Positions 19,653 to 54,130 are shown, numbered from the stretch's first letter. The stretch: DNA of 64,000 nt from Actinomycetota bacterium (GCA_023379605.1 JAMCQF010000164.1:297-64296); one strand, 5' to 3'. The notes: generated by a model from the sequence alone, not told the origin. Numbers and translations are program-made.

Positions 19653-19777
19653 CCTCAAAGTGCCTCACTTACAGGGTCCGTGCTTGAATCCTCGCACGTA
19701 GTAGCCGATCGTGGGGCATCAATCGCGGGGGCCTCAAAGTGCCTCACTTACAGGGTCCGTGCTTGAATCCTCGCACG
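19653..19777. repeat. 46-bp perfect direct repeat pair separated by 33 bp (locus A)
   Basis: CCTCAAAGTGCCTCACTTACAGGGTCCGTGCTTGAATCCTCGCACG at 19653-19698 and 19732-19777. Lies between the hydrolase stop and the gnd start. Confidence 0.95.
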
Positions 19778-19798
19778 CTGCAGGCGATCGCGGTTCCA

Positions 19799-20584
19799 TC
19801 AGTGGCAAACCTCTGCCAGGAAGGACTCGATGGAGCCCACAAAGGCGCTGTCAAATAGGGCGTTCATGTGATTCCCGGTCGTGATCGCTCCTCTGGCTCC
19901 AGGAATCCGGGCGGCGAGCTCTATTGGTGAGCCAGCGAGGGTATCGGCGCTTCCAGCAATGATGAGCACCGGCACTCGTATGCCAGATAGATCCGGTCCG
20001 CTGTTGCCCTCCAGTAGCTGGGCCTTCTGCCACGCTGCCAGAGCCAGTCGATCGGCCCCTGTAGCGTCTGCGAACTGCCTGTATCCCCTGGCCGAGGGGT
20101 CCTTGACATAGGAGAGGGTGGGTGCCTCCATGGCCTGAGCTACAGATGCGGGACTGTGGAACCATCCCCGAGCGCGCATGGAGTCGCCAGCTCCAGCGGC
20201 TACTGCGGCAATCACCCTCGGTTCGCCAGCAGCCAGGTGCAATGCCGTTACTGCGCCCATGGAGTAGCCGAGCACGCAGACCTTTTTCAAGCCTAGGTGG
20301 TCAAGCAATGCCCGTACGTCTCCTACCATCGCATTTTGCCCATATGATCCGGCATCGTGGGGCTTTGCAGATCTTCCATGCCCTCTAGCATCGAGCAGTA
20401 CTAAAGAGTGTCCGTGAGAGGCCATGGCATTAACAACTCCCGTTCGCACCCAGGTTACCTGGCTGTTTGCGGCAAACCCATGAAGCAGCAGCACTGTCGA
20501 GCCATTAGGGCATGGTCGGAGCGCATATGCCAGCTCCAGGCCATCATAGCTCTCAAAGCTGGACCAGCTGAGCTCCTCTGTCAC
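19799..20584 (-). CDS. alpha/beta hydrolase
   Basis: LLLHGF and nucleophile elbow GYSMGA. The ORF opens at 20620. GTG 20584 gives a GTGA overlap with the upstream stop, so it is preferred. Confidence 0.85.
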   Translation of the reverse strand: MTEELSWSSFESYDGLELAYALRPCPNGSTVLLLHGFAANSQVTWVRTGVVNAMASHGHSLVLLDARGHGRSAKPHDAGSYGQNAMVGDVRALLDHLGLKKVCVLGYSMGAVTALHLAAGEPRVIAAVAAGAGDSMRARGWFHSPASVAQAMEAPTLSYVKDPSARGYRQFADATGADRLALAAWQKAQLLEGNSGPDLSGIRVPVLIIAGSADTLAGSPIELAARIPGARGAITTGNHMNALFDSAFVGSIESFLAEVCH

Positions 20585-21723
20585 GGCCGTCTCTGTTCTA
20601 TGCCCCAGTTGCCGCTCCATGACTCGCCTGGACCCAATCGTATGAGGTCTTCGCCGGTTCTAAAGGCATTGGGAGGGCAGGTCATGGGTTCTATGGCTAT
20701 CCCGGTCCGCCGTCGGTGCGGGTTTGGGAGAGTGTCGCCTGTGTAGCACATTAGATAGGGAAAGCTTTCATCCACCCAGACAGCAACGGCTCGAGGAGGC
20801 CCATTATCCTCTCCAGTCTCGTCGCGAGTTCGTAGAGCTGGTTCGGGGCTCTCCAGCACGGCCCAGGCCCTGCCCTGGTTATCTCGGGTCAGCGAGGTGA
20901 AGGCAGTGTCAAGCTTGGTCTCTTTAACCAGCCGAGGTGAGCGAAAATCGAGACCGGTGCCTGCAACAGATCGCCTACCCTTGGGCAGGCCCCTTTCGTC
21001 GCTTTCCAAGGCGATCTCTGCTGGCAGCTGGAGCAAGCAGGTGTCAATCGGTGCTGAAGCACCTTGGTAGCCGGAGCGCCCTTCTTTGCCTGAAGCCCTC
21101 ATTTGGGCAGGGCATAGATGCTCCTTGCAGGGTGTTTGCTGCATTGATGGCTCGGGCTCCACGTGCTGTGGGTGTGCATAGCCCAGTGAGGGCGGAGGTG
21201 CCAGGTATGGATGGAAGCCAGCCCCGAATGGCAGGTCCTTGGCGTCGAGGTTTGTCGCAGTCGTGCTCACAACAAGGCCAGAGCTGTGAACCTTATAGGT
21301 GACCGTGAGCTCTAGCTGGAAGGGGTATGCCGGCTGGGGGTGCAGATGACATCTAAGCGAAATCCGGTCCTGGGAGCGTTCCTTGAGCTCCCACGGAAGC
21401 CATCTGACCAAACCATGGATAGCATTGCTGCGCTCTGGCTCATCCAAACCAGCATGTCCTCGGATCCCGTCGAACAGGTAAGTTCCTCCCTCCAGGCGGT
21501 TGGGCCATGGCATGAGAACCTGGCCCCGGCTGCCTTCGCACATGTCTGAGGCTGGAAACCCGTCTAAAAGCTCGGTTCTGTCCAAGAGAAGTGCCCTAAG
21601 AGTTGCACCCACCTCCGTTATCACGGCTTTGCAGGTCCCCGAGATCGAATAGATGACATGCTGAATGCCCGAAGGAGGCTGTACATCGCTGACATCGCTG
21701 TTTCTCCTAGCCAAGCGGTCCAC
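20581..21723 (-). CDS. aldose 1-epimerase (galactose mutarotase-like) family protein
   Basis: 380 aa with GFHPYL and IEPMTCPPNAF motifs. Carries an extra low-complexity segment after GFHPYL. Confidence 0.8.
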   Translation of the reverse strand: MDRLARRNSDVSDVQPPSGIQHVIYSISGTCKAVITEVGATLRALLLDRTELLDGFPASDMCEGSRGQVLMPWPNRLEGGTYLFDGIRGHAGLDEPERSNAIHGLVRWLPWELKERSQDRISLRCHLHPQPAYPFQLELTVTYKVHSSGLVVSTTATNLDAKDLPFGAGFHPYLAPPPSLGYAHPQHVEPEPSMQQTPCKEHLCPAQMRASGKEGRSGYQGASAPIDTCLLQLPAEIALESDERGLPKGRRSVAGTGLDFRSPRLVKETKLDTAFTSLTRDNQGRAWAVLESPEPALRTRDETGEDNGPPRAVAVWVDESFPYLMCYTGDTLPNPHRRRTGIAIEPMTCPPNAFRTGEDLIRLGPGESWSGNWGIEQRRP

Positions 21724-21852
21724 CTTTCGGTCGTTGAGCTTTCCAGAGCGCTGAACGGCGGCTTATGTAAGCCGGGATACAACCTAGGTGGCTGTGCGAA
21801 CGCTAAGCAGGCGCGCCCCAGCTGTCCTGACTGCGGGTATCGTAACAGCACA

Positions 21853-22647
21853 GTGCGTATCCTGGTCACCAACGACGACGGCGTCAATGCGCCGGGCATA
21901 GCTCACCTGGCCCGGTTCCTTGCCAAGGTGGGTCACGACGTCGTAGTGATTGCACCGCTGCAGGACTCCAGTGGTGCGGGCGCCGGCGTAGGCCCGGTCC
22001 ACCAGTTCGGAGGAATCTCCTATGAGCGCATAGAGATACCTGGCTTGGACGCTCCTGCCTACGGGATCGATGGGCTGCCAGCGATGGCTGTGATCGCTGG
22101 TTGCCTGGGGGGTTTCGGCGATCCTCCAGAGATTGTGGTCTCTGGGATCAACCTCGGTCTCAACGCGGGTTTCTCTGTGCTTCACTCAGGCACAGTTGGA
22201 GCGGCGCTGACTGGTACGCACTTCAATGTCTCTGCGTTGGCGGTGAGCATAGAGTGGGCAGCGGATCTTGACTCGGTGCACTGGGACACTGCATCAGTGC
22301 TGGCCAGCTACCTGGTCGGCTCCATCTTGGAGGGCCCGCCCTCTACGGTGCTCAACTTGAACGTACCCAACCGGGCTTTAGGTGAGCTGAGAGGAATGAG
22401 CAGGGCAGACCTGGCTGCCAGCGGGACCATACGATCGGCAGTTGATCAAGACGGCGAGGGCTATCTCCAGCTCGCGTTGGGACGTAGAGGGGGTTCTAGC
22501 GAGGCTGGGACGGACGTGGGCCTGGTCGAGCAGGGCTTTGCCTCGTTGACGGCGATAAGGAGCGTCTCTGAGGACCCTCGAAGGATCGCAAGCGAGTTCG
22601 TAGAAGGGCTGGCTGGCTCCTGGGTGAAAGAACCCGTTGATGTGTGA
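21853..22647 (+). CDS. surE: 5'/3'-nucleotidase SurE
   Basis: Start placed at GTG 21853 (VRILVTNDDGVNAPGI, the canonical SurE N-terminus). The ORF opens at 21658 but overlaps the divergent gene. Confidence 0.9.
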   Translation: MRILVTNDDGVNAPGIAHLARFLAKVGHDVVVIAPLQDSSGAGAGVGPVHQFGGISYERIEIPGLDAPAYGIDGLPAMAVIAGCLGGFGDPPEIVVSGINLGLNAGFSVLHSGTVGAALTGTHFNVSALAVSIEWAADLDSVHWDTASVLASYLVGSILEGPPSTVLNLNVPNRALGELRGMSRADLAASGTIRSAVDQDGEGYLQLALGRRGGSSEAGTDVGLVEQGFASLTAIRSVSEDPRRIASEFVEGLAGSWVKEPVDV

Positions 22648-22743
22648 TCCCCGCCTTTATGTGGGTGGTTAGCCACGATGAGCTTTGACCCCCGGACCAA
22701 TCCGTCGTTGATGTGTGATCCCCGCCTTTATGTGGGTGGTTAG
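22635..22743. repeat. 38-bp perfect direct repeat pair separated by 33 bp (locus B)
   Basis: CGTTGATGTGTGATCCCCGCCTTTATGTGGGTGGTTAG at 22635-22672 (includes the surE stop) and 22706-22743 (ends 6 nt before the DedA start). Confidence 0.95.
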
Positions 22744-22749
22744 GGACTT

Positions 22750-23481
22750 GTGTTGCTCGTGAGCACCGCGGCGGTTTGGCTGGAGGCGCTTCGAGCAGCA
22801 GGGCACAGCTCACAGGGCCTGCATGGCGCCGTGAGCTCGTATGGCTATGCGGGCGTGGCCTTGCTAGTGGGAGTGGAGAGCTTCGGGATTCCCTTGCCCG
22901 GGGAGACGACCCTTGTGGCTGCAGGGATCTATGCAGGTACCACCCACCGGCTCTCGCTCGTAGTGCTGGTTGTGGTGGCTAGCGCTGCTGCCATAATCGG
23001 TGACAACATAGGATACCTGATCGGCTGGGCTGGGGGATACAAGCTTCTGCGCAAGTATGGCAGCTACATCCACGTCAACGAGTCTCGCCTGAAGCTCGGC
23101 CACTACGCGTTTTCCAAGCACGGAGGACTGGTGGTCTTTGCCGGTCGGTTCATTGCCGTGCTACGCACTTACGCCGCATTCCTGGCCGGCACGAGCGGGA
23201 TGCGATGGTGGCGGTTCTTTGCCTTCAACGCAGCTGGTGGCATCTTGTGGTCCGCCCTGTACGCTGTTGGGTCTTATTACCTCGGTCAGTCCCTAAGAAC
23301 AGTCTCTTCCATCTTCACCTACAGCGCCATACCAGTGGTCGTTATCGCGCTGGTTGCTGCCTATGTTTTCCTAAAGCACAACGAGGCCAGGCTTTCGGCC
23401 AAGGCCGAGGAAGCCTTTCCCGGCCCGCTCGATTCCTACATGGGTCCAGCTCTGAGCTTGCACAGGCAAAGTTCGAGCTAG
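22750..23481 (+). CDS. DedA-family membrane protein
   Basis: 243 aa with GIPLPGETTLVAAGIYAG and RFIAVLRTYAAFLAG, typical of DedA/SNARE-associated proteins. GTG start. Confidence 0.85.
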   Translation: MLLVSTAAVWLEALRAAGHSSQGLHGAVSSYGYAGVALLVGVESFGIPLPGETTLVAAGIYAGTTHRLSLVVLVVVASAAAIIGDNIGYLIGWAGGYKLLRKYGSYIHVNESRLKLGHYAFSKHGGLVVFAGRFIAVLRTYAAFLAGTSGMRWWRFFAFNAAGGILWSALYAVGSYYLGQSLRTVSSIFTYSAIPVVVIALVAAYVFLKHNEARLSAKAEEAFPGPLDSYMGPALSLHRQSSS

Positions 23482-23484
23482 CGT

Positions 23485-24216
23485 TTGAAGGTGCGCCAAT
23501 TCCAAGTCCCGAGGCCGTGGTCCCTGCCACCCTGGCGCAGGGTTGCCTCCAAGGTAGTCAACCGCGCCTGGCAGCACGCCTGTGCTCTTGGGGCTGTGGG
23601 TCCACAAGACGAGCTGGCCAAGCGCTTCGGCGCTTTCGGCATAGGAAGCTGCCTGGGGTTTCCGCCAGGGTCGGTTTTTGGAGAGCGGTGGATACATGTG
23701 GGGGAGGCCACGATGATCGGTGCCTTTGTCACGCTCTCGGCAGGTATGGTGCCCGGCCAGGAGATGGTCACTGATCCTGTTGTACGCATAGGGAACCGCT
23801 GCACGATAGGTAGAGGCAGCCACATTGTAGGTCACCTGGCTATAGAGATAGAAGACGATGTCATGACGGGCCCCTACGTATATATAACCGACCAGAACCA
23901 CGGCTACACCGACACCGAGCTGCCGATAGGAACCCAGATGCCCAACGAGCGAGCCGTGCGCATTGGAGCCGGGAGCTGGCTAGGGGCTGGGGCAGTAGTG
24001 CTTCCTGGATCGGACATAGGAGAGCACGTAGTGGTGGCGGCAGGAGCGGTTGTACTGGGCGAGGTTCCTCCAAGAACGGTGGTGGCAGGCGTTCCAGCTC
24101 GTGTAGTCCGCCGCCATGACCCACTTCAAGGTTGGGTCTCGCCGGATCCAGTGTTATCTGGAACAAGACCAGCTTCTCCCAGGACTGGCGATGGGCCGTC
24201 TCATAATGGTCGATGA
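23485..24216 (+). CDS. left-handed beta-helix (hexapeptide-repeat) acyltransferase
   Basis: Hexapeptide repeats IGAGSWLGAGAVVLPGSDIGEHVVVAAGAVVLGEVPPRTVVAGVPARVV. TTG start uncertain. Confidence 0.8.
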   Translation: MKVRQFQVPRPWSLPPWRRVASKVVNRAWQHACALGAVGPQDELAKRFGAFGIGSCLGFPPGSVFGERWIHVGEATMIGAFVTLSAGMVPGQEMVTDPVVRIGNRCTIGRGSHIVGHLAIEIEDDVMTGPYVYITDQNHGYTDTELPIGTQMPNERAVRIGAGSWLGAGAVVLPGSDIGEHVVVAAGAVVLGEVPPRTVVAGVPARVVRRHDPLQGWVSPDPVLSGTRPASPRTGDGPSHNGR

Positions 24217-24217
24217 C

Positions 24218-24979
24218 ATGAGCGCCCGCATCATTGCCGTTGCCAATCAGAAAGGTGGCGTAGCCAAGACCACCACTGTGCACAGCCTAGGGGCAGCTTT
24301 ATCAGAAAGATCCCGGTCCGTTCTGCTGGTGGACCTCGATCCCCAGGCGTGCCTTACGTTTTCCGCAGGTTTTGATCCCGACACCCTTTCTTGCACGATC
24401 CACGACGTTTTGGCTCATGGCGCAGACATGGAGGCAGCGGTGCTAAAAGCACCGAATTTCGACCTATTGCCTGCCAATATCGACCTTGCTGCATCCGAGG
24501 TACATCTGCTGGCCAGAACCGGGAGAGAGCACGTCCTTAGCAGGGCCCTGGCGAAGGTGAGCCACCAGTACGACTACGTGCTGGTTGACTGCCCGCCATC
24601 GCTTGGCGTGCTGACCATAAACGGCCTTGCCTGTGCCCACGAGGTGCTCATCCCTTTGCAGTGTGAGGCGCTCAGCCACCGCGGAGTAGGACAGCTCCTG
24701 GACACCGTCGAAGAGGTAAAGAGCCTGGCGAACCCCGGGCTTTCTGTTAGGGGACTCATAGCTACCATGTACGACGAAAGGACGCGCCATTCCCGCCAGG
24801 TGCTTGAGGACGTTGCCTCTCGCTACGGGATAGCTGTTCTGGTACCACCAGTACGCAAGTCGATCCGCTTTGCCGAAGCACCTGCCCAGGGCCGCTCGAT
24901 CTTGGAGCACGCCCCGCATTCGCCCGGAGCCGAGGCCTATAGAGAGCTGGCAGCGGTTCTAGATGGCGACCTGAGATAG
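24218..24979 (+). CDS. ParA/Soj-family ATPase (orphan, no parB nearby)
   Basis: Deviant Walker A IAVANQKGGVAKTT, LLVDLDPQ, VLVDCPPSLG. ATG 24218 lies 1 nt after the upstream stop; ATG 24206 is an alternative. Confidence 0.9.
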   Translation: MSARIIAVANQKGGVAKTTTVHSLGAALSERSRSVLLVDLDPQACLTFSAGFDPDTLSCTIHDVLAHGADMEAAVLKAPNFDLLPANIDLAASEVHLLARTGREHVLSRALAKVSHQYDYVLVDCPPSLGVLTINGLACAHEVLIPLQCEALSHRGVGQLLDTVEEVKSLANPGLSVRGLIATMYDERTRHSRQVLEDVASRYGIAVLVPPVRKSIRFAEAPAQGRSILEHAPHSPGAEAYRELAAVLDGDLR

Positions 24980-25048
24980 CACCGCGTGGCCGGCTACAGA
25001 CGGTAAGGCCCCAAGCGGGGAACACGGCCGGAGAACACCGAGATGAAA

Positions 25049-29447: not shown

Positions 29448-29531
29448 GCTGGCAATCCTACAATTTCACCAGTGAGCTGATCTAAGAAGTGCCACTACCA
29501 GGGGAGCTGGAATAGGAATAGGCTCAGCGCT

Positions 29532-32676: not shown

Positions 32677-33024
32677 TGGTGGAGGTGGCGGGAATCGAAC
32701 CCGCGTCCTCCGGCTTCTCAACGAGGATTCTCCGAGCGCAGCCGGTGCAGGTTAAGGCCTGAACGGGTCATCGGCACCCCGTAGAGGTCTTTGCCGGGCT
32801 GAGCTTCCCCGACCTCGCCCCGGCGACTTGATCAGGTAAGCCCTACTTGATGGCGCCTGAATCCGACCCGTAGGGCTGGGGCCGGTCAGACGTCGCTACT
32901 TATCAGGCAGCGATCGCGAGCGGTTGCTCGGCGTTTGTATTGTTTTCCGGCTCTTTAACGTGGCTCCGGAGACCACGGCTCGCTTCACTCATCTCGACGA
33001 CCAGAGTCGAAACCTTTCACCCCC
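32677..33024 (-). ncRNA. ssrA: tmRNA (SsrA)
   Basis: The minus strand reads 5' GGGGGTGAAAGGTTTCGACTCTGG ... GGACGCGGGTTCGATTCCCGCCACCTCCACCA 3', with tRNA-like ends and an encoded CCA. The internal tag frame ...GCCGAGCAACCGCTCGCGATCGCTGCC TGA TAA gives ...AEQPLAIAA plus a double stop (about 32900-32947). The resume codon is not assigned. smpB lies directly upstream. Confidence 0.9.
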
Positions 33025-33940: not shown

Positions 33941-34348
33941 ATGCTGCATCTTCCAGCTGGTATTTACCAACAGATACTAAGCCATTGCCTGTCAGGCCTA
34001 CCGGAAGAGGCCTGCGGGCTCCTGGGCGGCCAATTCGCCACAGCTGAGGTGTTTCGTTGCTATCCAACCCGCAATGTAGCGGCATCAGCGCGTGTTTATA
34101 CCGTAGACCCATTAGAGCACCTAAAGGCAGATCGAGACGCTCAAGCTTGCGGCATGGAGATCATAGGGGTGTTCCACTCCCATACCCATACTGAGGCGTA
34201 CCCGTCGGAGACCGACGTCAACCAGGCTCCAGACCCCCTCTGGCACTACGTGCTCGTTTCCTTGCGCCATCCATCTCCGGTGCTGCGGTCCTACAGGATC
34301 ATAGGCGGGAACATCGCCGAGGAATCGGTTGTTCTCAAAGGCCACTAG
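33941..34348 (+). CDS. mec: JAMM/MPN+ metalloprotease (Mec-like, CysO-associated)
   Basis: 135 aa with EEACGLLGG and JAMM motif HSHTHTEAYPSETD. Sits directly upstream of cysO-cysM. Confidence 0.85.
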   Translation: MLHLPAGIYQQILSHCLSGLPEEACGLLGGQFATAEVFRCYPTRNVAASARVYTVDPLEHLKADRDAQACGMEIIGVFHSHTHTEAYPSETDVNQAPDPLWHYVLVSLRHPSPVLRSYRIIGGNIAEESVVLKGH

Positions 34349-34388
34349 AATCATCAGTCAAACAGTCGACAATTTTCTGGGAGGGCAC

Positions 34389-34670
34389 ATGCCCGTCGAA
34401 GTTCGCTTGCCATCAATGCTGCGCATACATGTCCAAGGTCAGAGCTCGCTCGAAGTAAAAGGCGAGACCGTGGGAGAGGTGCTCGAGAACCTGGCGAAGG
34501 AGAACCCAGGCATGACCGGTCAGATCGTTGACGGGGAGGGCGTACTGCGCAAGTTCGTAAACGTCTACGTTAACGACGATGACATCCGCTACCTCAACCA
34601 GCTCGATACGAAGCTCTCCAGCGGGGATGTCATAACGATCCTGCCTGCCGTGGCAGGGGGCGGGTGGTGA
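34389..34670 (+). CDS. cysO: MoaD/ThiS-family sulfur-carrier protein CysO
   Basis: 93 aa from ATG 34389, preceded by GGGAGGG. Beta-grasp-like sequence ending ...ILPAVAGGGW. Flanked by mec and cysM. Confidence 0.8.
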   Translation: MPVEVRLPSMLRIHVQGQSSLEVKGETVGEVLENLAKENPGMTGQIVDGEGVLRKFVNVYVNDDDIRYLNQLDTKLSSGDVITILPAVAGGGW

Positions 34671-34677
34671 CACCTAC

Positions 34678-34778
34678 CTGGCGCAAGAGGCCACTGCCAT
34701 GACCTATTACCGCCCGGGTCCGAGCGTGTCAGTTGTCCCAATCTGGCGCAAGAGGCCACTGCCATGACCTATTACCGC
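34678..34778. repeat. 36-bp perfect direct repeat pair separated by 29 bp (locus C)
   Basis: CTGGCGCAAGAGGCCACTGCCATGACCTATTACCGC at 34678-34713 and 34743-34778. The second copy carries the cysM SD, ATG and first codons. Confidence 0.95.
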
Positions 34779-35711
34779 AGTGTTCTAGATCTCATAGGCA
34801 ACACCCCTCTTTTAGAGGTGAGCCAGCTGAGCCCTAACCCGAACGTGCGGATGCTGGTCAAGCTGGAAGGGCAGAACCCTGGCGGGTCGGTCAAGGACCG
34901 CATAGCTCTCGCAATGGTCGAGCAAGCCGAGAAAGACGGACTTCTCAGCCCAGGGCAGACTCTTTTGGAGCCATCCTCGGGCAACACCGGAATAGGTCTT
35001 GCCCTGGTGTGCCGCGTAAAGGGCTACAACCTGACAGTGGTGCTTCCGGCCAATGTCTCAATAGAGCGGCGCCAGCTGCTTAAGGTCTGGGGAGCCAAGA
35101 TCATAGACTCGCCAGCCAGCGAAGGGTCAAATGGAGCGGTGCGCCTCGCGAGGGAGATCGCCAGCTCCAATCCGCAGTACGCGTTCTTGTACCAATATGG
35201 CAATCCAGCCAATCCGAGAGCTCATTACGAAGGGACGGGTCCGGAGATATGGCGGGACTGCCCAGAGGTCACCCACTTTGTCAGCGGGCTCGGTACCTCA
35301 GGTACGCTGCTGGGGGTGGGCCGCTACCTAAAGGACCAGAACCCTGCGATAGAAGTTTGGGCAGTAGAGCCGCCAGCAGGAGAGGCCGTAGATGGGTTGC
35401 GGAGCCTAGATGACGGCTATATACCGCCCATCTTCATAGACAACGATGGCTTTGACCTACTAGATCGTAAGACGATTAGTGATCCTCGAGCCTCTATACT
35501 CTGGACAAGACGCCTAGCAGAGATCGGGGTGTTTGCTGGCATATCGTCTGGAGCGGCGATGGCCGGTGCCGCGCGCTGCGCCAGCAGCATTGACAGCGGC
35601 GTAATCGTTGTGGTTGCCGCGGATGCAGGATGGAAGTACCTCTCCACGGGCGCATGGACAGACGATCTTGATGAGGTTGTGGAAAGAGCGCGCAAGATCA
35701 TCTACTTCTGA
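34764..35711 (+). CDS. cysM: cysteine synthase, CysM type (CysO-thiocarboxylate dependent)
   Basis: 315 aa with PLP-lysine motif NPGGSVKDRIA, SSGNTGIGLA and GLGTSGTLLG. Confidence 0.9.
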   Translation: MTYYRSVLDLIGNTPLLEVSQLSPNPNVRMLVKLEGQNPGGSVKDRIALAMVEQAEKDGLLSPGQTLLEPSSGNTGIGLALVCRVKGYNLTVVLPANVSIERRQLLKVWGAKIIDSPASEGSNGAVRLAREIASSNPQYAFLYQYGNPANPRAHYEGTGPEIWRDCPEVTHFVSGLGTSGTLLGVGRYLKDQNPAIEVWAVEPPAGEAVDGLRSLDDGYIPPIFIDNDGFDLLDRKTISDPRASILWTRRLAEIGVFAGISSGAAMAGAARCASSIDSGVIVVVAADAGWKYLSTGAWTDDLDEVVERARKIIYF

Positions 35712-40665: not shown

Positions 40666-41657
40666 CCGAACCAGAGGTAGCACCATCATCGATGCCGGCC
40701 GGATCTGAGCCCCCAGGGCGGTCTGGGAGATCCCCGCAGGAGCAGGCGGCGGGATACCACCAGGTGGGTGTAGAGCAGGCGGGTGTAGAGCAGGCGGCGG
40801 GATACCACCAGGTGGGTGTAGAGCAGGCGGGTGTAGAGCAGGCGGTGGGTGGAGATCTCTTGAGGAGCCTTGAGGCTGGAGTGCTTTGGGTGACTCTAAA
40901 CCGCCCTGACATGGGCAACGCCATGACCGCGGATATGAACGCCCAGCTTGCAACGTGGGTAGAAGAGGCTTCGGCAGATCTCTCGGTGCGCTGCCTGGTC
41001 ATAGCCGGGGCGGGGGAAAAGGGGTTTTGCACTGGAGCAGACCTGCGAGCCTCCAGGGCGCCCTCGCCTAGACCTTCTGGCGCACCAACCCCAGCCATGG
41101 GAGAGGTGGCAAGGGTCATACGGATCGGATGGCAACGCTTGATAGGGTCGCTCATTGACTGTGAGAAACCAGTCATAGCGGCGGTGAACGGAACCGCTGC
41201 GGGGGGAGGCATGCATCTCGCCCTTGCTTGCGATCTTGTTGTCGCTGCTGAAGGTTCTAGGTTCATAGAGGCATTCGTTCGTCGCGGCATAGCTCCAGAT
41301 GCCGGTGGCGCCTACCTACTCACGCGCCTGGTCGGACTCCAAAAGGCCAAGGAGCTCCTCTTCTTCGGCGAGGCGATCTCTGCCACAGAGGCGGAGCGGA
41401 TTGGCCTTGTGAACAGGGTGGTCCCAAGAGATGAGCTGGCTCAGGTGGTCAAGCAGATGGCTGCTTCTCTAGCGCAAGGTCCGACCAAGGCGATCGGTGC
41501 TGCCAAATGGCTCGCAAACAGGGCCTTGGAGACCGACAGGTCCACGTCGTTCTGGGAGGAAGCGATGGTTCAGGAAATGGTTCAGCAGAGCGAGGATGCC
41601 CATGAAGGGGTAAAGAGCTTTGTGGAAAGACGTGAGCCAAGATATGTCGGATGGTGA
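40662..41657 (+). CDS. enoyl-CoA hydratase/isomerase with repeat-containing N-terminal region
   Basis: VTLNRPDMGNAM, FCTGADL, GTAAGGGMHLALACD. GTG 40662 overlaps the upstream stop (GTGA). An alternative GTG 40845 would place the 48-bp repeats in a leader. Confidence 0.85.
   Translation: MTEPEVAPSSMPAGSEPPGRSGRSPQEQAAGYHQVGVEQAGVEQAAGYHQVGVEQAGVEQAVGGDLLRSLEAGVLWVTLNRPDMGNAMTADMNAQLATWVEEASADLSVRCLVIAGAGEKGFCTGADLRASRAPSPRPSGAPTPAMGEVARVIRIGWQRLIGSLIDCEKPVIAAVNGTAAGGGMHLALACDLVVAAEGSRFIEAFVRRGIAPDAGGAYLLTRLVGLQKAKELLFFGEAISATEAERIGLVNRVVPRDELAQVVKQMAASLAQGPTKAIGAAKWLANRALETDRSTSFWEEAMVQEMVQQSEDAHEGVKSFVERREPRYVGW
40742..40845 (+). repeat. 48-bp perfect tandem duplication (2.2 copies) with nested 15-bp subrepeat
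   Basis: GCAGGCGGCGGGATACCACCAGGTGGGTGTAGAGCAGGCGGGTGTAGA at 40742-40789 and 40790-40837, then a partial copy. The inner GTGTAGAGCAGGCGG occurs twice per unit. Confidence 0.95.
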
Positions 41658-46755: not shown

Positions 46756-46759
46756 TCCA

Positions 46760-47530: not shown

Positions 47531-47618
47531 GCAACGGCCACCTACAGCTCGGCGACCGAGAGCGATTCCAAAGTCACTTTGGAATCGGTTAGCGAGCTGG
47601 CGGTCAAGCCCCCAGGTA

Positions 47619-48173: not shown

Positions 48174-48399
48174 CTCTACCTCCTTGTGCTGTTGGGTTGT
48201 GCGCATAAGTTGTCGCTTCCATTGTTGCAAGCAGCACGTCGCAATCCATGGCAGGAGCTACCTGCAAGAAGGAGGTGGCTGGGCAAAGAGATGGCCCGAG
48301 CAGGATATGGCTGGCAAGAACGGTTGGAGGCGTGCTTCGAGCTTAGAGATGGTCCAACCATCTCTAAGCTCTTGAAGCTATCTGTGGCGTGGACTGGGC

Positions 48400-49308: not shown

Positions 49309-49499
49309 TCACCTTCCTTGTCCAGTTAATCGGTTACGGTTCGTTACAGCCTACGAGCCGCTCGCAGCATGGTCGAGATAGTGGCCAAGGTCAAGATGGA
49401 AAGCTTGGCCAACAGCTCAGCTTGGCTGTCTATGCAAGTGGACACCCCAGGGCGCTCTTTGGGTGCCACAGCGACAACCGCAGCGTGGCTTTGGACGAG

Positions 49500-50288
49500 C
49501 TACTGTATCAGCGAGCCAAGACCCACGGGGGCACGGTTGGTTATTGCAACCCCTCCAGCGCGCTGGTCAGTGATTGCCAGGTCCTGCACCTGGCTTGCTG
49601 GATCGAGGCGGAACCAGCCGTAGCTTGGATGGCTACCTAGCAGGCCGAGCGAGATCTTTCCCGAAGCAGAGATAGCCCAGAGCTGGTATGTCCTGTTGGC
49701 GGGCAGCTGCTCGAGAGAGGCATTGACGATGAATCCCTCTCCGTCCGGCAGGACCACTGCCTCAGCTACAGCTTGTCCTTTGGCATCGTTTATGGGCACC
49801 CTCCTTGCATTGGGTTGCAAGAGGGCTGCCATGGCGAGTTGGCGAACCCCTGTGGCTTCCACAGCGGTGCCCAGCGCGCTCACCCGCTCGTCCAAATGGT
49901 TGACCTGGATGCCGAGAAATGCCGCAAGGACAGCAGCTGCCACTGCGGCAGCGCTCACAGCCCATAGTGGCCAACGTTTCGCCGGCATAGAGTGACTCTT
50001 AGGGCGATTGAGCGCAAGCAGGGCGTGAGAGTCGTAGAGGCCCGTCTTGTCATTAGGTCCTCCGGACTCCATGGCTGCTGCAATGCGCTGCCACAATTGC
50101 ACTGGTGCGTCAGATCCCGTTGTGGCCATTGCCGAAGCGACTTCCCTGTAGCTGGCCACCTCTGCCCTGCAACGGGGGCAATCGCGCAGGTGGTTCTCTA
50201 CCTGTCTAGCTTCCACTGGATCCAAGGCATCGAGTGCGTAAGCTCCCAGCAGCTCTTCTATCTCTGTATGGACCTGGATCTCGCTCAA
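49500..50288 (-). CDS. anti-sigma factor (zf-HC2 N-domain, single TM, RskA-like extracytoplasmic domain)
   Basis: LLGAYALDALDPVEARQVENHLRDCPRCRAEV and TM WPLWAVSAAAVAAAVLAAFL. The TTG start overlaps the sigma-factor stop (TTGA). Confidence 0.8.
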   Translation of the reverse strand: MSEIQVHTEIEELLGAYALDALDPVEARQVENHLRDCPRCRAEVASYREVASAMATTGSDAPVQLWQRIAAAMESGGPNDKTGLYDSHALLALNRPKSHSMPAKRWPLWAVSAAAVAAAVLAAFLGIQVNHLDERVSALGTAVEATGVRQLAMAALLQPNARRVPINDAKGQAVAEAVVLPDGEGFIVNASLEQLPANRTYQLWAISASGKISLGLLGSHPSYGWFRLDPASQVQDLAITDQRAGGVAITNRAPVGLGSLIQ

Positions 50289-51067
50289 GGCTCTCTCACC
50301 CCGCTGTCTACAAGGGAGGATCTCATTCTACGCAGGCCGGTGCGAATCCTGGACTTTACCGTCCCTTCAGGCTGCTTCAGCTGGCCGGCCACCTCCTTAT
50401 AGGTATAGCCCCCGAAGTACGCAAGCTCTATGGCCCTGCGCTCGTCCTCAGGAAGTGATGCCATCGCCTGGCGTACCTGATCGGCTACGGCCATATCCCA
50501 GACGGCATGATCTACGTCATAGCCACTTGCCACAGTCCGCAGGGCGTCGCGCTCTTCTCTCAGCCGGCGGGAACGGTCGGACCGCAGCACATCGACAGAT
50601 CGCCCATGGGCTTGCACAAGCAGGTAAGTGCGAAGCGATCCCCGGTCAGGATCGTGGCGTTCTGGAGCGTTCCATAGCCTGAGAAACACCTCCTGGGTGA
50701 TCTCTTCAGCTAGTGAGATATCCCCGGTAACCCTGCGTGCCAGTGCATACACGGCTCCCCCATGGCGCCGGTAGAGCTCAGCAAGAGCATCTTGACGCCA
50801 CCGTCCTATGGCCACCAGCAGATTGGTATCGCTGGCGTTGGCGAGATCTAGATCTTCCCTCGTGTTCTGTAATACGGACCCAGCTCCATCTTGGATGTGC
50901 TCAAAGAACTGCTTGGGCCGATCTTCGCTCTGGTCTGCGAGCGCGCCGCCCTTGGCAGCTGAGCCATCTCGATCTTGCTGGTGCAACCGGAATACCTCCT
51001 GGATTGGCGTCCAGCCTACATCTGCCTGGGCATCTGAGCCCACCGTTCTCCATACGACTCTAGTCAA
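50285..51067 (-). CDS. ECF (sigma-70 family) RNA polymerase sigma factor
   Basis: Region 2 (LAELYRRHGGAVYALARRV, EITQEVFLRLW) and region 4 (RRAIELAYFGGYTYKEVAGQL). About 75 aa of N-terminal extension if TTG 51067 is used, so the start is uncertain. Confidence 0.85.
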   Translation of the reverse strand: MTRVVWRTVGSDAQADVGWTPIQEVFRLHQQDRDGSAAKGGALADQSEDRPKQFFEHIQDGAGSVLQNTREDLDLANASDTNLLVAIGRWRQDALAELYRRHGGAVYALARRVTGDISLAEEITQEVFLRLWNAPERHDPDRGSLRTYLLVQAHGRSVDVLRSDRSRRLREERDALRTVASGYDVDHAVWDMAVADQVRQAMASLPEDERRAIELAYFGGYTYKEVAGQLKQPEGTVKSRIRTGLRRMRSSLVDSGVREP

Positions 51068-51176
51068 GATCTAGAGGCTCCAGCCAACATGTGCGGTTCA
51101 GCTCAGCTCGGCCTGGTGAGTAGCTGGCATCTGCGCCATACACACAGGTGACATCCGGAAGGGAACTGGCTACGTA

Positions 51177-51590
51177 TTGACTTACATGCGTATGAGGGCG
51201 GCAATGACATTTGCAGCACTGGCTATGGCTATCTCGCTATCTGCTTGTAGCTCAGCCACGCCCTCCAACAAGCCCTTTTCCGAGGGCACAACTACTCCAA
51301 GCGTCGCGCCATACTCCAGCGGGCCGTCTGGCAACAAGTCCACCACGCTTGTGATCCATGATTTCGCCTTCCATCCCAAGGACTTCACGATTCATGAAGG
51401 TGAGCAGATTATCGTGAAGAACGAGGACGCTGTAACACATACCTTTACCGCAGATAATAGGGATTTCAATACCGGGGACATACTTCCAGGCCAAATAGTT
51501 AAGATCACCATCAATTTGCCACCGGGTAGCTACCCTTATCAATGCCTGATACATCCTTTCATGACCGGTGTGTTGACAGTAGTCAAATGA
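51177..51590 (+). CDS. cupredoxin (amicyanin/plastocyanin-like blue-copper) lipoprotein
   Basis: Lipobox LSACSS. Type-1 Cu ligand pattern His (VTHTF) ... YPYQCLIHPFMTG (Cys-x2-His-x2-Met). Confidence 0.8.
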   Translation: MTYMRMRAAMTFAALAMAISLSACSSATPSNKPFSEGTTTPSVAPYSSGPSGNKSTTLVIHDFAFHPKDFTIHEGEQIIVKNEDAVTHTFTADNRDFNTGDILPGQIVKITINLPPGSYPYQCLIHPFMTGVLTVVK

Positions 51591-51710
51591 AGGCAGTTCA
51601 AAGCGGGCTCTGCGCCCACGGAGGGCTCGAAGGAGCCTCTATCTGGCTCAGGGCAGCAAGAGGGCTGCAAGGCAACTTCTAGAACATACAAGCAAGGAGG
51701 AATCGCAAAC

Positions 51711-52562
51711 GTGACCATTGATGATAAGGCACTCTCCCAGCTCATGGAAGAGTCTCAGGACATACAGTCCGACTCGATGAAAGCATCCAGACTAGCACTA
51801 CACGAGATGGTTGATGCCGGCCTGGAACGAAAAGAAAGTGGAGATGAGGACCCAGCTCGCAATGCTGCTTTTGCCGCGAGGCGCTCCGGTTTGCTGCGCA
51901 TCGGTATGTTCGGCGTCGGCGCTCTCGCAGCAGCCGGGTTCGGCGCCGCTCTCGCGGCCCTAAGTGAATCCCAAGCGTTCGCTCAGTCGGCTACAGACGT
52001 GCAGGTGCTCCAGACCCAGGCATCCATTGAGGTGATAGCAATAAGCACATACAAGACCGCTCTGACGCTTCCTTTCATAGGCGGGAGCTCAGCAAATCCG
52101 GTGGTCAAGGCGTTCGCTCAGACCACCATGGCGCAGCACGAGGAGCACCTCAAGGCTTTCAACGCTTCAGTGCTGGCTCTCGGCGGGAAGGCTCAGAACA
52201 GCCCTGATCCCCAGCTGGTACCCATAGTCAATGCCGCGGTGGCCAAGATAACTGGGCCTTCAGGTGTAGTGGCGCTGGCTCTGGAGCTAGAGCAAGGTGC
52301 AGCGCAGACGTACCTGAACGACCTTCCTGCCATAGAGGACCACAATGCTCGCAAGCTAACCGCAAGCGTGATGGGGGTGGAGGCACAGCACGCCTCCGTG
52401 CTGTTGGCTGTCCAGGCCCTTTTGAACGGGGGGGCTCCTCAGCTGATCGCGTTGCCTACAGATCTTGCAGCACTTCCGTCGGCTGCCGGTTCGGTGGGTT
52501 TTCCCGACGCGTTCTATCCGACCTCGGGCGCTCTCTCTATGACGGCGGGGGCGATCAGGTAA
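51711..52562 (+). CDS. ferritin-like four-helix-bundle protein with twin-arginine-type signal
   Basis: GTG start 9 nt after AGGAGG. RR motif AARRSGLL followed by a hydrophobic region. Metal-ligand-like strings IEVIA, AQHEEHL, LELEQGAAQTY, VEAQHASV. Confidence 0.7.
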   Translation: MTIDDKALSQLMEESQDIQSDSMKASRLALHEMVDAGLERKESGDEDPARNAAFAARRSGLLRIGMFGVGALAAAGFGAALAALSESQAFAQSATDVQVLQTQASIEVIAISTYKTALTLPFIGGSSANPVVKAFAQTTMAQHEEHLKAFNASVLALGGKAQNSPDPQLVPIVNAAVAKITGPSGVVALALELEQGAAQTYLNDLPAIEDHNARKLTASVMGVEAQHASVLLAVQALLNGGAPQLIALPTDLAALPSAAGSVGFPDAFYPTSGALSMTAGAIR

Positions 52563-53386
52563 TGGCCTGGAAAAAGGTGATCAAGGAGAGAGTTGACATG
52601 GACATAAGTGAGCACGAGCTAACGAGAATGACCAAGGAGATGGACGAGCTTAACGAGGATCAGGGTCTGCCTCAGATGCAGCACGCTGCTCAAGAATGGA
52701 CCGAAGCCATTAAGGACCAGCTCGATCACAAGCGTAAGGGAGTGACGTCTCGAAGGTCTTTTTTGCTAGGGATCGGAGCTGTGGGTGGAGGAGCCTTGCT
52801 CGCAGCCTGCGGTAGCTCAACTTCTGCCACAAAGAGCAAGGCTGTGACCCCTGTTGCGCCGACATCTGCATCTAGCGCACAGCTGGATGATCTGCACATA
52901 GCCGCCATGGCGACGAGCCTGGAGAACCTCGCGGTATATGCCTATGGAGCTGGGATAGCCGCAGCCAAGGCCGGCAAGCTGGGCAGTGTCCCTCCTGCTG
53001 TGGTCACCTTTGCCGAGACCGCCAGGGCCCAACATCAAAGTCACGCCAACGCTTGGAACTCGGTGCTCACGGGCGCAGGAAAACCAAAGGTGACAGCCAC
53101 CGATCCTGTGCTCACCCCAGTGGTCAACGCCAAGTTCAAGTCTGTGACCAACGTGACCGAACTGGCTGAGCTGGCCCTTTTGCTAGAGGACACCGCTGCT
53201 CAGACCTATCTGGCAGGCATATCCGCCCTTACTGGTAGCTCTGCAATAGAGCTCGCCGGGAGCATAGAGCCCGTCGAGATGCAGCACTCAGCCATCTTGA
53301 ACTTCGTATTGGGCAAGTATCCCGTGCCAAACGCGTTCGAGCCAACTGCTCTTGCTCGACCGCTTAGCGACTATACGAGGCTCTAG
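52562..53386 (+). CDS. ferritin-like four-helix-bundle lipoprotein with twin-arginine signal (paralogue of preceding gene)
   Basis: TSRRSFLLGIGAVGGGALLAACG (Tat motif plus lipobox). SLENLAVYAY, AQHQSHANAW, LLLEDTAAQTY and VEMQHSAIL are collinear with the upstream paralogue. Confidence 0.7.
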   Translation: MAWKKVIKERVDMDISEHELTRMTKEMDELNEDQGLPQMQHAAQEWTEAIKDQLDHKRKGVTSRRSFLLGIGAVGGGALLAACGSSTSATKSKAVTPVAPTSASSAQLDDLHIAAMATSLENLAVYAYGAGIAAAKAGKLGSVPPAVVTFAETARAQHQSHANAWNSVLTGAGKPKVTATDPVLTPVVNAKFKSVTNVTELAELALLLEDTAAQTYLAGISALTGSSAIELAGSIEPVEMQHSAILNFVLGKYPVPNAFEPTALARPLSDYTRL

Positions 53387-53477
53387 GCCAACCCTTATCC
53401 ACCAGCGGCCCTGCTTGGATGGCGCCGGCTGAAGCTCAAACTACCGACGCAGCATTGACTGCCGCTGCATCTTTACT

Positions 53478-54011
53478 ATGGTTGACGATCGAGGTGCTGG
53501 CATGAACACATCTGAGCTGCTTGTAGACGCATTCGGGAGGATAAGAGGGGGTGTCCAGGAGGTGCTGGGGGGACTGCATCCCGACGTCCTTTCATTTAGC
53601 CCCGGACCACGGTCCAACTCCATTGCCTGGCTAGTGTGGCATCTGACCCGTGTTCAAGATGACCATGTGGCCAGTGCCGCAGGAAGTGACCAGGTTTGGA
53701 TATCGGCAGGCTTTGCCGAGCGCTTTGGGTTGCCGTTTGAGCCTCGAGCAACCGGCTATGGCCAACGGCCTGAGGAGGCGGCAGAGATGAAGGTGAGCTC
53801 CACAGAGCTGCTCTTGGATTACCACGAGGCGGTTTACCGAGCAAGTGTCGCCTACCTGGGTCAACTCGGCGAGAGCGATCTCGACAGGATCGTGGATCGT
53901 TCCTGGAGCCCGCCTGTCTCATTGGGGGTGAGGCTTGTGAGCGTGGTTGAAGACGGTCTCCAGCATGTGGGTCAAGCCGCCTACTTGAGGGGTTTGGCTG
54001 GCAGAGGATGA
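53478..54011 (+). CDS. DinB/YfiT-like (mycothiol-transferase-type) family protein
   Basis: 177 aa with NSIAWLVWHLTRVQDDH and GQAAYLRG, typical of DinB_2-type four-helix proteins. ATG 53502 is an alternative start. Confidence 0.75.
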   Translation: MVDDRGAGMNTSELLVDAFGRIRGGVQEVLGGLHPDVLSFSPGPRSNSIAWLVWHLTRVQDDHVASAAGSDQVWISAGFAERFGLPFEPRATGYGQRPEEAAEMKVSSTELLLDYHEAVYRASVAYLGQLGESDLDRIVDRSWSPPVSLGVRLVSVVEDGLQHVGQAAYLRGLAGRG

Positions 54012-54024
54012 TCGAAAGGCAGAG

Positions 54025-54130
54025 ATGACAGCTCTCCACCGACACTCAACCTGCTGCCACGTCGCGGGCACTTTCAGCAGAACGGGAGTCACTCATGACA
54101 GCTCCCCGCCTACACTCAACCTGCTGCCAC
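54025..54130. repeat. 36-bp direct repeat pair (33/36 identical) separated by 34 bp (locus D)
   Basis: ATGACAGCTCTCCACCGACACTCAACCTGCTGCCAC at 54025-54060 and ATGACAGCTCCCCGCCTACACTCAACCTGCTGCCAC at 54095-54130. Confidence 0.9.

What the first reader, a model, noticed from the sequence alone, without database searches (positions are those of the whole stretch)
19653..54130. Four unrelated loci share one geometry: 36-46 bp direct repeat, 29-34 bp insert, repeat again
Seen: locus A is 19653-19698 and 19732-19777 (46 bp, 46/46 identical, insert 33). Locus B is 22635-22672 and 22706-22743 (38 bp, 38/38, insert 33). Locus C is 34678-34713 and 34743-34778 (36 bp, 36/36, insert 29). Locus D is 54025-54060 and 54095-54130 (36 bp, 33/36, insert 34). 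The four repeat sequences are unrelated to each other. A lies 21 nt from the hydrolase stop, B overlaps the surE stop and C carries the cysM start; D sits in the intergenic space between the DinB-like gene and tRNA-Leu. In B, C and D my hand alignments show no convincing similarity between the insert and either flank, so they are not simple tandem duplications. For B and C, deleting the insert plus one repeat copy restores a compact, sensible junction. Established: filling in a staggered cut gives a target-site duplication as long as the stagger. Cas1-Cas2 spacer integration duplicates a repeat-sized target around an insert of roughly 30-35 bp, and off-target 'neo-CRISPR' integrations of this kind have been reported experimentally in E. 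coli. Ku/LigD end-joining of staggered breaks with filler DNA is an alternative route. Inference: these may be natural footprints of such integration or repair events. Locus A points to a different reading, because its insert is about two-thirds identical to the downstream flank while the 46-bp cores are identical. On that reading these are old 65-79 bp duplications in which only the core is kept identical by selection or gene conversion. The 46-bp length of A also fits a fixed Cas1-Cas2 ruler poorly. Both readings are unusual.
Basis: partly seen in the sequence, partly recalled or inferred. Interest (0 to 1): 0.65.

Follow-up and report, generated by a model that had tools for sequence, protein, structure and literature searches.

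The report
Polymorphic short insertions with long duplications
At four intergenic spots in this uncultured actinobacterial genome, about 30 bp of DNA from elsewhere sits between two copies of a 36-46 bp stretch of host sequence; near-identical wild strains lack two of these exactly, so they are real, recent insertions with CRISPR-spacer-like dimensions, but the enzyme that made them is not identified.

Summary
It is far beyond chance: shuffles give 0 such pairs, and the window has about 17 times the density seen in 1.43 Mb of other Actinomycetota.

The structures are real. Independent assemblies contain them, including k=141 contigs, and k=31 contigs from many samples break exactly 30 nt inside the repeats.

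Strains 99.8-99.9% identical to the window carry exact empty sites (one repeat copy, no insert) at locus A and locus C. B and D are filled in every sample seen. The inserts are not copies of their flanks or of anything in the window, and they match nothing in the virus, phage, plasmid or metagenome collections searched.

So these are young insertion-plus-target-duplication events, not decayed tandem duplications and not artefacts.

The agent is unresolved:
- Best guess (about 0.35-0.4): a staggered cut with integration of a size-measured fragment, as in off-target Cas1-Cas2 spacer integration.
- Main rival (about 0.3): replication or repair duplication with junctional filler.

I could not determine whether the lineage has Cas1 or 36-nt CRISPR repeats, because the species is absent from the searchable genome collections. 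A possible fifth locus (59093/59169) is a decayed coding tandem repeat and belongs to a different class.

The parts
19653..19698 (.). Locus A, repeat copy 1 (46 nt)
   Evidence: 46/46 identical to 19732-19777. The Logan contig L148 stops at 19682, which is copy start + 29.
19699..19731 (.). Locus A, insert (33 nt)
   Evidence: Absent, together with one repeat copy, from L006/L147 (SRR28401814). Present in L007 and L009. No donor in the window. The first 16 nt match the flank after copy 2 at 11/16 in register; the rest is at chance level.
19732..19777 (.). Locus A, repeat copy 2 (46 nt), 21 nt from the hydrolase stop codon on the minus strand
   Evidence: Five Logan contigs start at 19748, which is copy end - 29.
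22635..22672 (.). Locus B, repeat copy 1 (38 nt), contains the last three surE codons and the stop (22645-22647)
   Evidence: 38/38 identical to the second copy. Logan contigs end at 22664, which is copy start + 29.
22673..22705 (.). Locus B, insert (33 nt)
   Evidence: Present in L007, L008 and L009. Unrelated to the flanks. Positions 4-22 weakly resemble the first 19 nt of the repeat, 14/19, uncorrected p about 0.008. No match in IMG/VR.
22706..22743 (.). Locus B, repeat copy 2 (38 nt), ends 6 nt before the GTG start of the DedA/VTT-domain gene (22750)
   Evidence: All 17 Logan contigs that carry the DedA gene start 36 nt upstream of it, at 22714, which is copy end - 29.
34678..34713 (.). 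Locus C, repeat copy 1 (36 nt), starts 7 nt after the cysO (ThiS-family) stop and carries a duplicate of the cysM ATG and first 5 codons
   Evidence: 36/36 identical to the second copy. From this ATG a 22-codon ORF runs through the insert and stops at a TGA that overlaps the real cysM ATG.
34714..34742 (.). Locus C, insert (29 nt)
   Evidence: Absent, with one repeat copy, from L001 (SRR25885107) and L002 (ERZ27237319). Found in no other fetched contig. No match in IMG/VR or JGI metagenomes.
34743..34778 (.). Locus C, repeat copy 2 (36 nt), carries the functional cysM start (ATG at 34764)
   Evidence: L003-L005, plus 6 similar contigs not shown, start at 34749, which is copy end - 29.
54025..54060 (.). 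Locus D, repeat copy 1 (36 nt), starts 13 nt after the DinB_2 gene stop
   Evidence: 33/36 identical to copy 2; the three differences cluster at repeat positions 11, 14 and 17.
54061..54094 (.). Locus D, insert (34 nt)
   Evidence: Identical in all 8 spanning contigs from other samples. Unrelated to the flanks. No IMG/VR match.
54095..54130 (.). Locus D, repeat copy 2 (36 nt), 75 nt from the 3' end of tRNA-Leu (minus strand)

Best explanation
Each locus is the product of one insertion event. The chromosome was opened by two single-strand cuts staggered by 36-46 nt. A short double-stranded fragment of 29-34 bp, not derived from the neighbourhood, was joined between them. The two single-stranded flanks were then filled in, so the 36-46 bp target now appears on both sides of the insert.

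Because both neighbouring genes keep their own copy of the shared stop, ribosome-binding-site or start sequence, such insertions are tolerated even in 28-31 nt intergenic spacers.

The direct repeats then allow precise loss by slippage or recombination, so the loci turn over and are polymorphic between strains.

What is shown:
- insertion plus duplication;
- exact empty alleles;
- non-local inserts;
- enrichment specific to this lineage.

What is inferred:
- the staggered cut and fill-in;
- the agent.

The agent I consider most likely is a spacer integrase (Cas1-Cas2) acting off-target. It is the only known enzyme that both measures a fragment of about 30-35 bp and duplicates a target of about 36 bp. 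It has not been demonstrated here.
For: - Exact empty sites occur in strains 99.8-99.9% identical to the window: locus C in L001 and L002, locus A in L006/L147. Apart from copy-number changes in two tandem-repeat arrays, the only other gaps are 1-3 nt.
- The compact state is ancestral at C. Relatives have cysO-cysM gaps of -4 to 19 nt, with one at 64 nt. Only copy 2 puts the ATG five codons before the conserved SVLDLIG.
- The inserts are not copies of the flanks, of the repeat, or of anything in the window. They are not built from local k-mers.
- Insert lengths are tight (33, 33, 29, 34), and three of the four duplications are 36-38 nt.
- The structures are real. The k141 contig L007 and the NCBI MAG contigs L008 and L009 contain A and/or B. 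Eight contigs contain D. Logan k=31 contigs from many runs break exactly 30 nt inside the repeats.
- The enrichment is lineage-specific: about 47 per Mb here against about 2.8 per Mb in 1.43 Mb of other Actinomycetota. None of the control cases has a 25-40 nt unrelated insert.
- Off-target Cas1-Cas2 integration that creates new repeat-spacer-repeat units is reported for E. coli (Nivala et al. 2018, as cited in 10.1101/148544, PMC7054753 and PMC6698737).
Against: - The duplication length is not fixed (36, 36, 38, 46). Known Cas1-Cas2 systems duplicate one repeat length set by molecular rulers (references listed in PMC6698737).
- At A there are 11/16 in-register matches just beyond the perfect core, and 8/16 at D. 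A clean staggered cut does not predict this.
- The four targets share no motif.
- Four events in 64 kb implies hundreds per genome. That is high for an off-target reaction that would mostly hit genes.
- No contig shows a second insert added at any locus.
- No protospacer was found in IMG/VR, INPHARED, PLSDB or JGI metagenomes.
- There is no cas gene in the window, and the lineage's CRISPR-Cas status is unknown.
Confidence: 0.38

Rival explanations
1. These are replication- or repair-associated duplications with junctional filler. One version is a double template switch: the nascent strand leaves after copying the 36-46 nt stretch, copies about 30 nt from a distant template, then re-primes upstream (FoSTeS/MMBIR-like). 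The other version is end joining (Ku/LigD) of a staggered break after fill-in, with capture of a small fragment.
For: - The same genome shows an unambiguous template-switch mutation. Window 6822-6837 is an exact reverse-complement copy of 6658-6673 (21 nt including a GGTGC microhomology), and every other strain has a different 16 nt there.
- This model tolerates variable duplication lengths and the part-matching zones next to the cores at A and D.
- Rarer structures of the same general shape, with 17-nt fillers, exist in other Actinomycetota at L108:567 and L066:17553. That suggests a general low-rate process.
Against: - No donor for any insert exists within the 64 kb window, and the inserts are not enriched for k-mers from the surrounding +/-100 to 1000 nt. 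Fork-local switching should use nearby templates.
- The insert length is tight (29-34 nt), which a filler process does not predict.
- The 80 control loci come from actinobacterial lineages that commonly carry Ku/LigD (my own knowledge, not checked here), yet show no comparable density.
Confidence: 0.3
2. These are old 65-79 bp tandem duplications in which the 'insert' is a decayed copy of the flank, and only the core is kept identical by gene conversion or selection. The empty alleles would then be recent deletions between the cores.
For: - At locus A, 11 of the first 16 nt match in register between the insert and the flank after copy 2. Both keep CGATCG, and with a one-base shift CATCA (matching the stop-codon context), at corresponding positions.
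- D shows identity decaying leftwards.
- Deletion between direct repeats would also yield exact empty sites.
Against: - B and C inserts are at chance identity to both flanks (18-38%), with sharp boundaries.
- Saturating divergence in 29-33 nt next to 36-46 nt with zero changes would need conversion tracts that end at exactly the same bases.
- A's similarity is not significant in local or global alignment tests.
- Relatives have compact cysO-cysM junctions.
Confidence: 0.07
3. This is an assembly artefact of a metagenome-assembled genome, for example strain bubbles stitched in tandem.
For: The window is a MAG contig from a mixed population. The filled allele at locus C is spanned only by the window's own contig.
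Against: - A (125 nt) and B (109 nt) lie whole inside contig L007 from a k=141 assembly, so single read-derived k-mers span them.
- Two other NCBI MAGs and eight contigs from different runs carry B or D.
- Logan k=31 contigs from several sequencing projects break at exactly k-1 inside each perfect repeat. This requires the repeat to occur in two contexts in the reads.
Confidence: 0.02
4. These are footprints of a mobile element: a tiny non-autonomous transposon, an excision scar with its target-site duplication, or attL/attR of a deleted integrative element.
For: A direct repeat flanking foreign DNA at gene ends is the classic signature of an inserted element. D lies next to a tRNA gene.
Against: - The four inserts share no ends, no inverted repeats and no word longer than 7 nt. 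Each occurs only once in all the DNA held.
- The 36-46 bp duplications exceed those of almost all bacterial transposons (my own knowledge).
- No transposase or integrase gene is in the window.
Confidence: 0.03

Closest known systems
Off-target ('neo-CRISPR') spacer integration by Cas1-Cas2 (Nivala, Shipman & Church 2018, E. coli; cited)
   Same: - A repeat-sized piece of ordinary chromosome is duplicated around a spacer-sized insert of unrelated DNA.
- Each site has its own 'repeat' sequence.
- Insert length is tight (29-34 bp).
- Three of the four duplications are 36-38 bp, a common CRISPR repeat length.
   Different: - That work was experimental, with overexpressed integrase and a duplication close to the canonical 28-bp repeat length (my recollection; the paper was not available).
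- Here one duplication is 46 bp and no target motif is shared.
- No further spacer has been added at any site.
- Density is very high.
- Neither Cas1 nor a canonical array has been shown for the organism.
Tandem duplication with inserted sequence at the junction (FoSTeS/MMBIR template switching; fill-in and joining of paired opposite-strand nicks)
   Same: The product is X-filler-X. Duplication length is variable. An independent template-switch mutation is present in the same genome.
   Different: Those fillers are usually templated from nearby sequence and vary widely in length. Here no local template exists, and the lengths fall within 29-34 nt.
Transposon target-site duplications, including the unusually long and variable ones of IS1634/IS1549-type elements (my own knowledge)
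   Same: A staggered cut plus fill-in gives direct repeats of the target around inserted DNA.
   Different: A transposon is a defined, repeated element with conserved ends and a transposase. Here the four inserts are unique, unrelated and only about 30 bp long.
Intergenic minisatellites such as mycobacterial MIRU/VNTR loci (my own knowledge)
   Same: Units of 40-100 bp lie in intergenic spacers of actinobacterial operons. They are polymorphic between strains and can preserve translational coupling, as with the 22-codon ORF at locus C that ends on the cysM ATG.
   Different: MIRUs are a sequence family repeated whole, head to tail. Here only part of the period is repeated, each locus is unique, and copy number is 1 or 2. 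True VNTRs in this window (40740, 58621) look different.

Membership tests
Neo-CRISPR / off-target Cas1-Cas2 integration | The insert has the length of the organism's spacers | not testable with these tools
   Inserts are 33, 33, 29 and 34 nt, within the general range of CRISPR spacers. The lineage's own arrays could not be reached: the species is absent from genome contigs and from JGI metagenomes.
Neo-CRISPR / off-target Cas1-Cas2 integration | The duplicated target has one fixed length equal to the canonical repeat | tested here: inconclusive
   Lengths are 36, 36, 38 and 46 nt. Three are compatible with a 36-nt ruler plus 0-2 chance matches. The 46-nt case is not. The canonical repeat length is unknown.
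Neo-CRISPR / off-target Cas1-Cas2 integration | cas1 and cas2 are present in the genome | not testable with these tools
   None in the 64 kb window (Pfam lists).
Neo-CRISPR / off-target Cas1-Cas2 integration | The insert is derived from a protospacer in foreign or own DNA | tested here: not met
   No exact 20-22-mer match in IMG/VR for any insert. No match in INPHARED, and only chance-level hits (E = 9) in PLSDB. No match in JGI metagenomes for the C insert. Absence is weak evidence, given how little of this environment is covered.
Neo-CRISPR / off-target Cas1-Cas2 integration | The insertion is an event: an empty site with a single target copy exists | tested here: met
   Exact empty alleles exist at C (L001, L002) and at A (L006).
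Canonical CRISPR array | Three or more copies of one repeat, shared between units, with a leader and adjacent cas genes | tested here: not met
   There are two copies per locus. The four repeat sequences are unrelated. No Rfam CRISPR-DR or other hit occurs at these sites. No cas genes are nearby.
Simple tandem duplication / VNTR | The whole period is repeated, so the sequence between the cores is homologous to a flank | tested here: not met
   In-register identity of inserts to flanks is 18-42% by the detector (B and C are at chance; A reaches 42% against the flank after copy 2). Alignment tests are not significant. Only the first 16 nt of the A insert match the flank, at 11/16.
Transposable element or MITE with target-site duplication | The insert is a repeated element with conserved termini or inverted repeats | tested here: not met
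   The inserts share no word longer than 7 nt. Each occurs only at its own locus in the window and in 147 loci. There is no notable fold.
Template-switch (FoSTeS/MMBIR, quasi-palindrome) insertion | An identical donor template is nearby, joined through microhomology | tested here: not met
   No word of 12 nt or longer from any insert occurs elsewhere in the window on either strand. There is no excess of local 6-8-mers. A donor outside the window cannot be excluded. By contrast, the 16-nt patch at 6822-6837 does meet this test.

The most novel reading that the evidence does not exclude
An uncultured Acidimicrobiia-like actinobacterium is seeding proto-CRISPR units across its chromosome in nature. 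A promiscuous spacer integrase inserts fragments of about 30-34 bp with 36-46 bp target duplications at a rate high enough that several events per 64 kb are segregating or fixed. This would be the first population-level view of how CRISPR arrays are born, and of their cost.
Probability: 0.3. Interest if true: 0.8.

Novelty: new variant of a known kind. Interest (0 to 1): 0.6.

Why it matters
If the agent is a spacer integrase, these loci are natural, dated, strain-polymorphic examples of off-target integration. That process has so far been shown mainly under overexpression in E. coli and has been proposed as the origin of new CRISPR arrays. With filled and empty alleles segregating in public metagenomes, rates, target preferences and fitness cost would become measurable.

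If instead the agent is a replication or repair pathway, this is a lineage with an unusual and frequent indel class: a long duplication plus a filler of about 30 bp. That class would be worth adding to bacterial mutation spectra.

Either way there are two practical points:
- Two-repeat 'questionable CRISPRs' reported by array finders can be real insertion events.
- A long target duplication lets DNA be inserted into very tight operon junctions without breaking either neighbour. At cysO-cysM the insertion even creates a coupled 22-codon upstream ORF.

Tried and rejected
- **Outgroup junctions.** A genome-contig scan with SurE found no relative, and the same scan of JGI metagenomes found none. 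The nearest CysM relatives are about 80% identical in protein, so no sister species is available to polarise B and D. The second genome scan, with a CysM alignment, served only as a control set and for cysO-cysM spacing.
- **Donor search.** I checked the window, all fetched loci, IMG/VR with 20-22-mers from all four inserts, phages and plasmids by blastn, and JGI metagenomes with the C insert. Nothing was found.
- **Local templating of the inserts.** There is no excess of flank k-mers on either strand. No insert is a reverse complement of its repeat.
- **Hairpins or terminators made by the structures.** Fold energies are within the range of shuffles. No terminator-like site lies at A or B.
- **Shared motif among targets or inserts.** None was found.
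- **A fifth member at 59093-59125 / 59169-59201 (28/33, period 76).** Rejected as the same class, because the stretch is colinear with the 126-bp coding repeat of the upstream SpoIID-domain gene.
- **Walking beyond the window for more of the genome.** All contigs stop within about 200 nt of both window ends. There is a tRNA gene at the right end.
- **Identifying the samples or MAG in the literature.** No paper was found. Nivala et al. 2018 is not in the library.
- **Mutations clustered next to the insertions as a sign of error-prone synthesis.** The one SNP near A (19794) is a common population variant, and there is none near C.

Full report
**Observation**

| Locus | Copy 1 | Copy 2 | Identity | Insert (nt) | Period (nt) |
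|---|---|---|---|---|---|
| A | 19653-19698 | 19732-19777 | 46/46 | 33 | 79 |
| B | 22635-22672 | 22706-22743 | 38/38 | 33 | 71 |
| C | 34678-34713 | 34743-34778 | 36/36 | 29 | 65 |
| D | 54025-54060 | 54095-54130 | 33/36 | 34 | 70 |

- The gene context is also as stated.
- A relaxed scan of the window finds only these four, one further pair at 59093/59169, and a genuine tandem array at 40740. Shuffled sequence gives none.
- The boundaries of B and C are sharp, with chance-level matching on both sides.

**Organism and data**

- The window is essentially a whole 64.5-kb contig of an uncultured 'Actinobacteria bacterium' MAG (CysM = MCL4423261.1).
- Its nearest CysM relatives are Acidimicrobiales MAGs at only about 80% protein identity. 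In the genome collection the best locus is 77%.
- The same organism, at 99.7-100% nucleotide identity, is present in many public assemblies. These are Logan k=31 contigs from at least five run series, an ENA k=141 assembly (ERZ27237319) and two NCBI MAGs.
- I fetched about 65 such contigs, covering window positions 1-32708 and 32957 to the right end.

**The structures are real and two are polymorphic**

- At locus C, contigs L001 (SRR25885107) and L002 (ERZ27237319) align to the window without any other gap but lack exactly 65 bp. They have one repeat copy and no insert.
- At locus A, L006/L147 (SRR28401814) lacks exactly 79 bp in the same way.
- A and B are contained whole in the k=141 contig L007 and in the MAG contig L009. 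The MAG contig L008 holds B whole but ends inside A.
- D is identical in all eight spanning contigs.
- B is filled, or causes a contig break, in all 20 contigs that carry the downstream gene.
- Logan contigs stop exactly 30 nt (k-1) inside each perfect repeat, at 19682, 19748, 22664, 22714 and 34749. This happens only if the repeat has two contexts in the reads.
- Across all this material, the only indels longer than 3 bp relative to the window are A, C and copy-number changes in two true tandem-repeat arrays.
- An assembly artefact is therefore excluded.

**They are insertions with target duplication, not tandem duplications**

- A tandem duplication would make the 'insert' homologous to a flank. 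It is not. In-register identities are 18-42%, and local and global alignment tests against shuffles are not significant.
- The inserts are not copies or reverse complements of their own repeats. The one exception is a weak 14/19 match in B.
- They are not assembled from local k-mers, and they have no 12-mer elsewhere in the window.
- At C the single-copy state is the ancestral one. Relatives that keep cysO next to cysM have gaps of -4 to 19 nt, with one at 64 nt. Only copy 2 places the ATG five codons before the conserved SVLDLIG.
- In the filled allele, the duplicate ATG in copy 1 opens a 22-codon ORF. It ends on a TGA that overlaps the real ATG.
- In B, copy 1 keeps the surE stop and copy 2 keeps the sequence just upstream of the next gene. 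More generally, the long duplication lets both neighbours keep their signals. This probably explains why such events survive in 28-31-nt spacers.

**Lineage specificity**

- With the same detector, 1.43 Mb from 80 other Actinomycetota loci contains four isolated comparable pairs:
  - L055:4295, which is a tandem duplication with an indel;
  - L066:17553, 32 + 17;
  - L085:13451, 36 + 53, part of a repeat family;
  - L108:567, 44 + 17.
- None of these has a 25-40-nt unrelated insert. The window has three perfect events in 64 kb.
- That is roughly a 17-fold excess. The Poisson probability of three or more is about 0.001.

**Age**

- A, B and C have identical copies. A and C are still segregating.
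- D has three clustered differences and is fixed in the samples seen.
- The process has therefore acted repeatedly.
- Direct repeats this close are expected to be lost easily (general knowledge), so turnover is probably fast.

**Mechanism**

- What the data show is capture of a fragment of about 30 bp, from outside the neighbourhood, between two copies of a 36-46-bp target.
- The simplest physical route is two nicks staggered by that distance, joining of the fragment, and fill-in.
- **For a spacer integrase (Cas1-Cas2):**
  - the tight insert length (29-34);
  - the 36-38-nt duplications at three loci;
  - the sharp boundaries;
  - the non-local inserts;
  - the restriction to one lineage.
  - Off-target integration that creates new repeat-spacer-repeat units is documented for E. 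coli (Nivala et al. 2018, as cited).
- **Against it:**
  - the 46-nt duplication at A;
  - the modest excess of in-register matches just outside the cores (56/160 against 25% expected, p about 0.005), driven by A (11/16) and D (8/16);
  - no shared target motif;
  - no growth of any locus beyond one insert;
  - the very high density;
  - no protospacer in any collection searched.
- Whether the lineage has Cas1 at all could not be tested.
- **The main rival** is a replication or repair origin: a double template switch, or end joining with filler. The same genome contains a textbook template-switch mutation (see below), and rarer X-filler-X structures occur in other Actinomycetota. However, the missing local donors and the narrow insert length argue against it.
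- My estimates are:

| Explanation | Probability |
|---|---|
| Integrase-type insertion | about 0.35-0.4 |
| Replication or repair | about 0.3 |
| Old duplication with homogenised core | about 0.07 |
| Mobile-element footprint | about 0.03 |
| Assembly artefact | about 0.02 |
| Something not yet thought of | remainder |

**The candidate fifth locus**

- The pair at 59093-59125 / 59169-59201 is 28/33 identical with period 76.
- It is colinear with the 126-bp coding repeat of the upstream SpoIID-domain gene (score above all 300 shuffles).
- Its two copies now encode the C-termini of two convergent genes.
- I read it as a decayed tandem repeat, not as a member of this class.

**Verdict**

- The specific Cas1-Cas2 attribution remains an attractive but untested hypothesis.
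- The 'old duplication' reading of A is not supported.
- The finding is unusual and cheaply testable with the complete MAGs and their read sets.

Noticed in passing
window 6822-6837 (donor 6658-6673, opposite strand): This is a template-switch mutation unique to the window's strain. The 16 nt GGAGTACAGCCCTAAC are an exact reverse-complement copy of 6658-6673 (21 nt identical when the GGTGC microhomology is included). All other strain contigs checked carry CGTCCGCGGTAACCTT at this position. The length is preserved. Six codons of a luciferase-like monooxygenase change from KVTADG to VRAVLR.
   Followed up: yes
window 59093-59125 and 59169-59201: A fifth repeat pair with similar geometry (28/33 identical, period 76). 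Copy 1 encodes the C-terminus and stop of the SpoIID-domain gene on the + strand. Copy 2 encodes the C-terminus of the HAD-family gene on the - strand. The stretch is colinear with the upstream 126-bp coding repeat, so it looks like a decayed repeat unit re-used by two convergent genes.
   Followed up: partly
window 40740-40868 and 58621-58930: Two tandem-repeat arrays vary in copy number between strains. A 48-bp unit at the 5' end of an enoyl-CoA hydratase gene has one unit fewer in L036, L039 and L041. A 126-bp unit inside the SpoIID-domain gene has one unit fewer in L016.
   Followed up: partly
window 32704-32708 (inside tmRNA gene 32677-33024, minus strand): Seven Logan contigs from different runs all end here, about 30 nt into the 3' part of the tmRNA gene. 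This suggests that the tmRNA 3' end occurs in a second context in the population, for example as the attachment site of an integrated element.
   Followed up: no
window 54025-54054: Three Logan contigs (L048, L049, L052) stop exactly 30 nt into D copy 1, although the two D copies share only 19 consecutive identical nt in the window. In those samples the first 31 nt of copy 1 seem to occur in two contexts. One possibility is a variant in which copy 2 lacks its three substitutions.
   Followed up: no
window 34699-34767: The insertion at locus C creates a 22-codon upstream ORF (MTYYRPGPSVSVVPIWRKRPLP). It starts at the duplicated cysM ATG and ends at a TGA that overlaps the real cysM ATG (ATGA). 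This arrangement is typical of translational coupling.
   Followed up: partly
L108:567-671 and L066:17553-17650 (control loci from other Actinomycetota): These are rare structures of the same general shape in unrelated genomes: a 44-nt perfect repeat around 17 nt, and a 32-nt perfect repeat around 17 nt. The L108 repeat is itself a hairpin. In L066 a zone of 7/10 matches follows the core, resembling the graded boundary at locus A.
   Followed up: partly
window 33941-35711: A mec(JAB)-cysO(ThiS)-cysM cluster of the mycobacterial type. The CysO-like protein ends in GGGW rather than GG. Relatives end in GG plus two extra residues.
   Followed up: no
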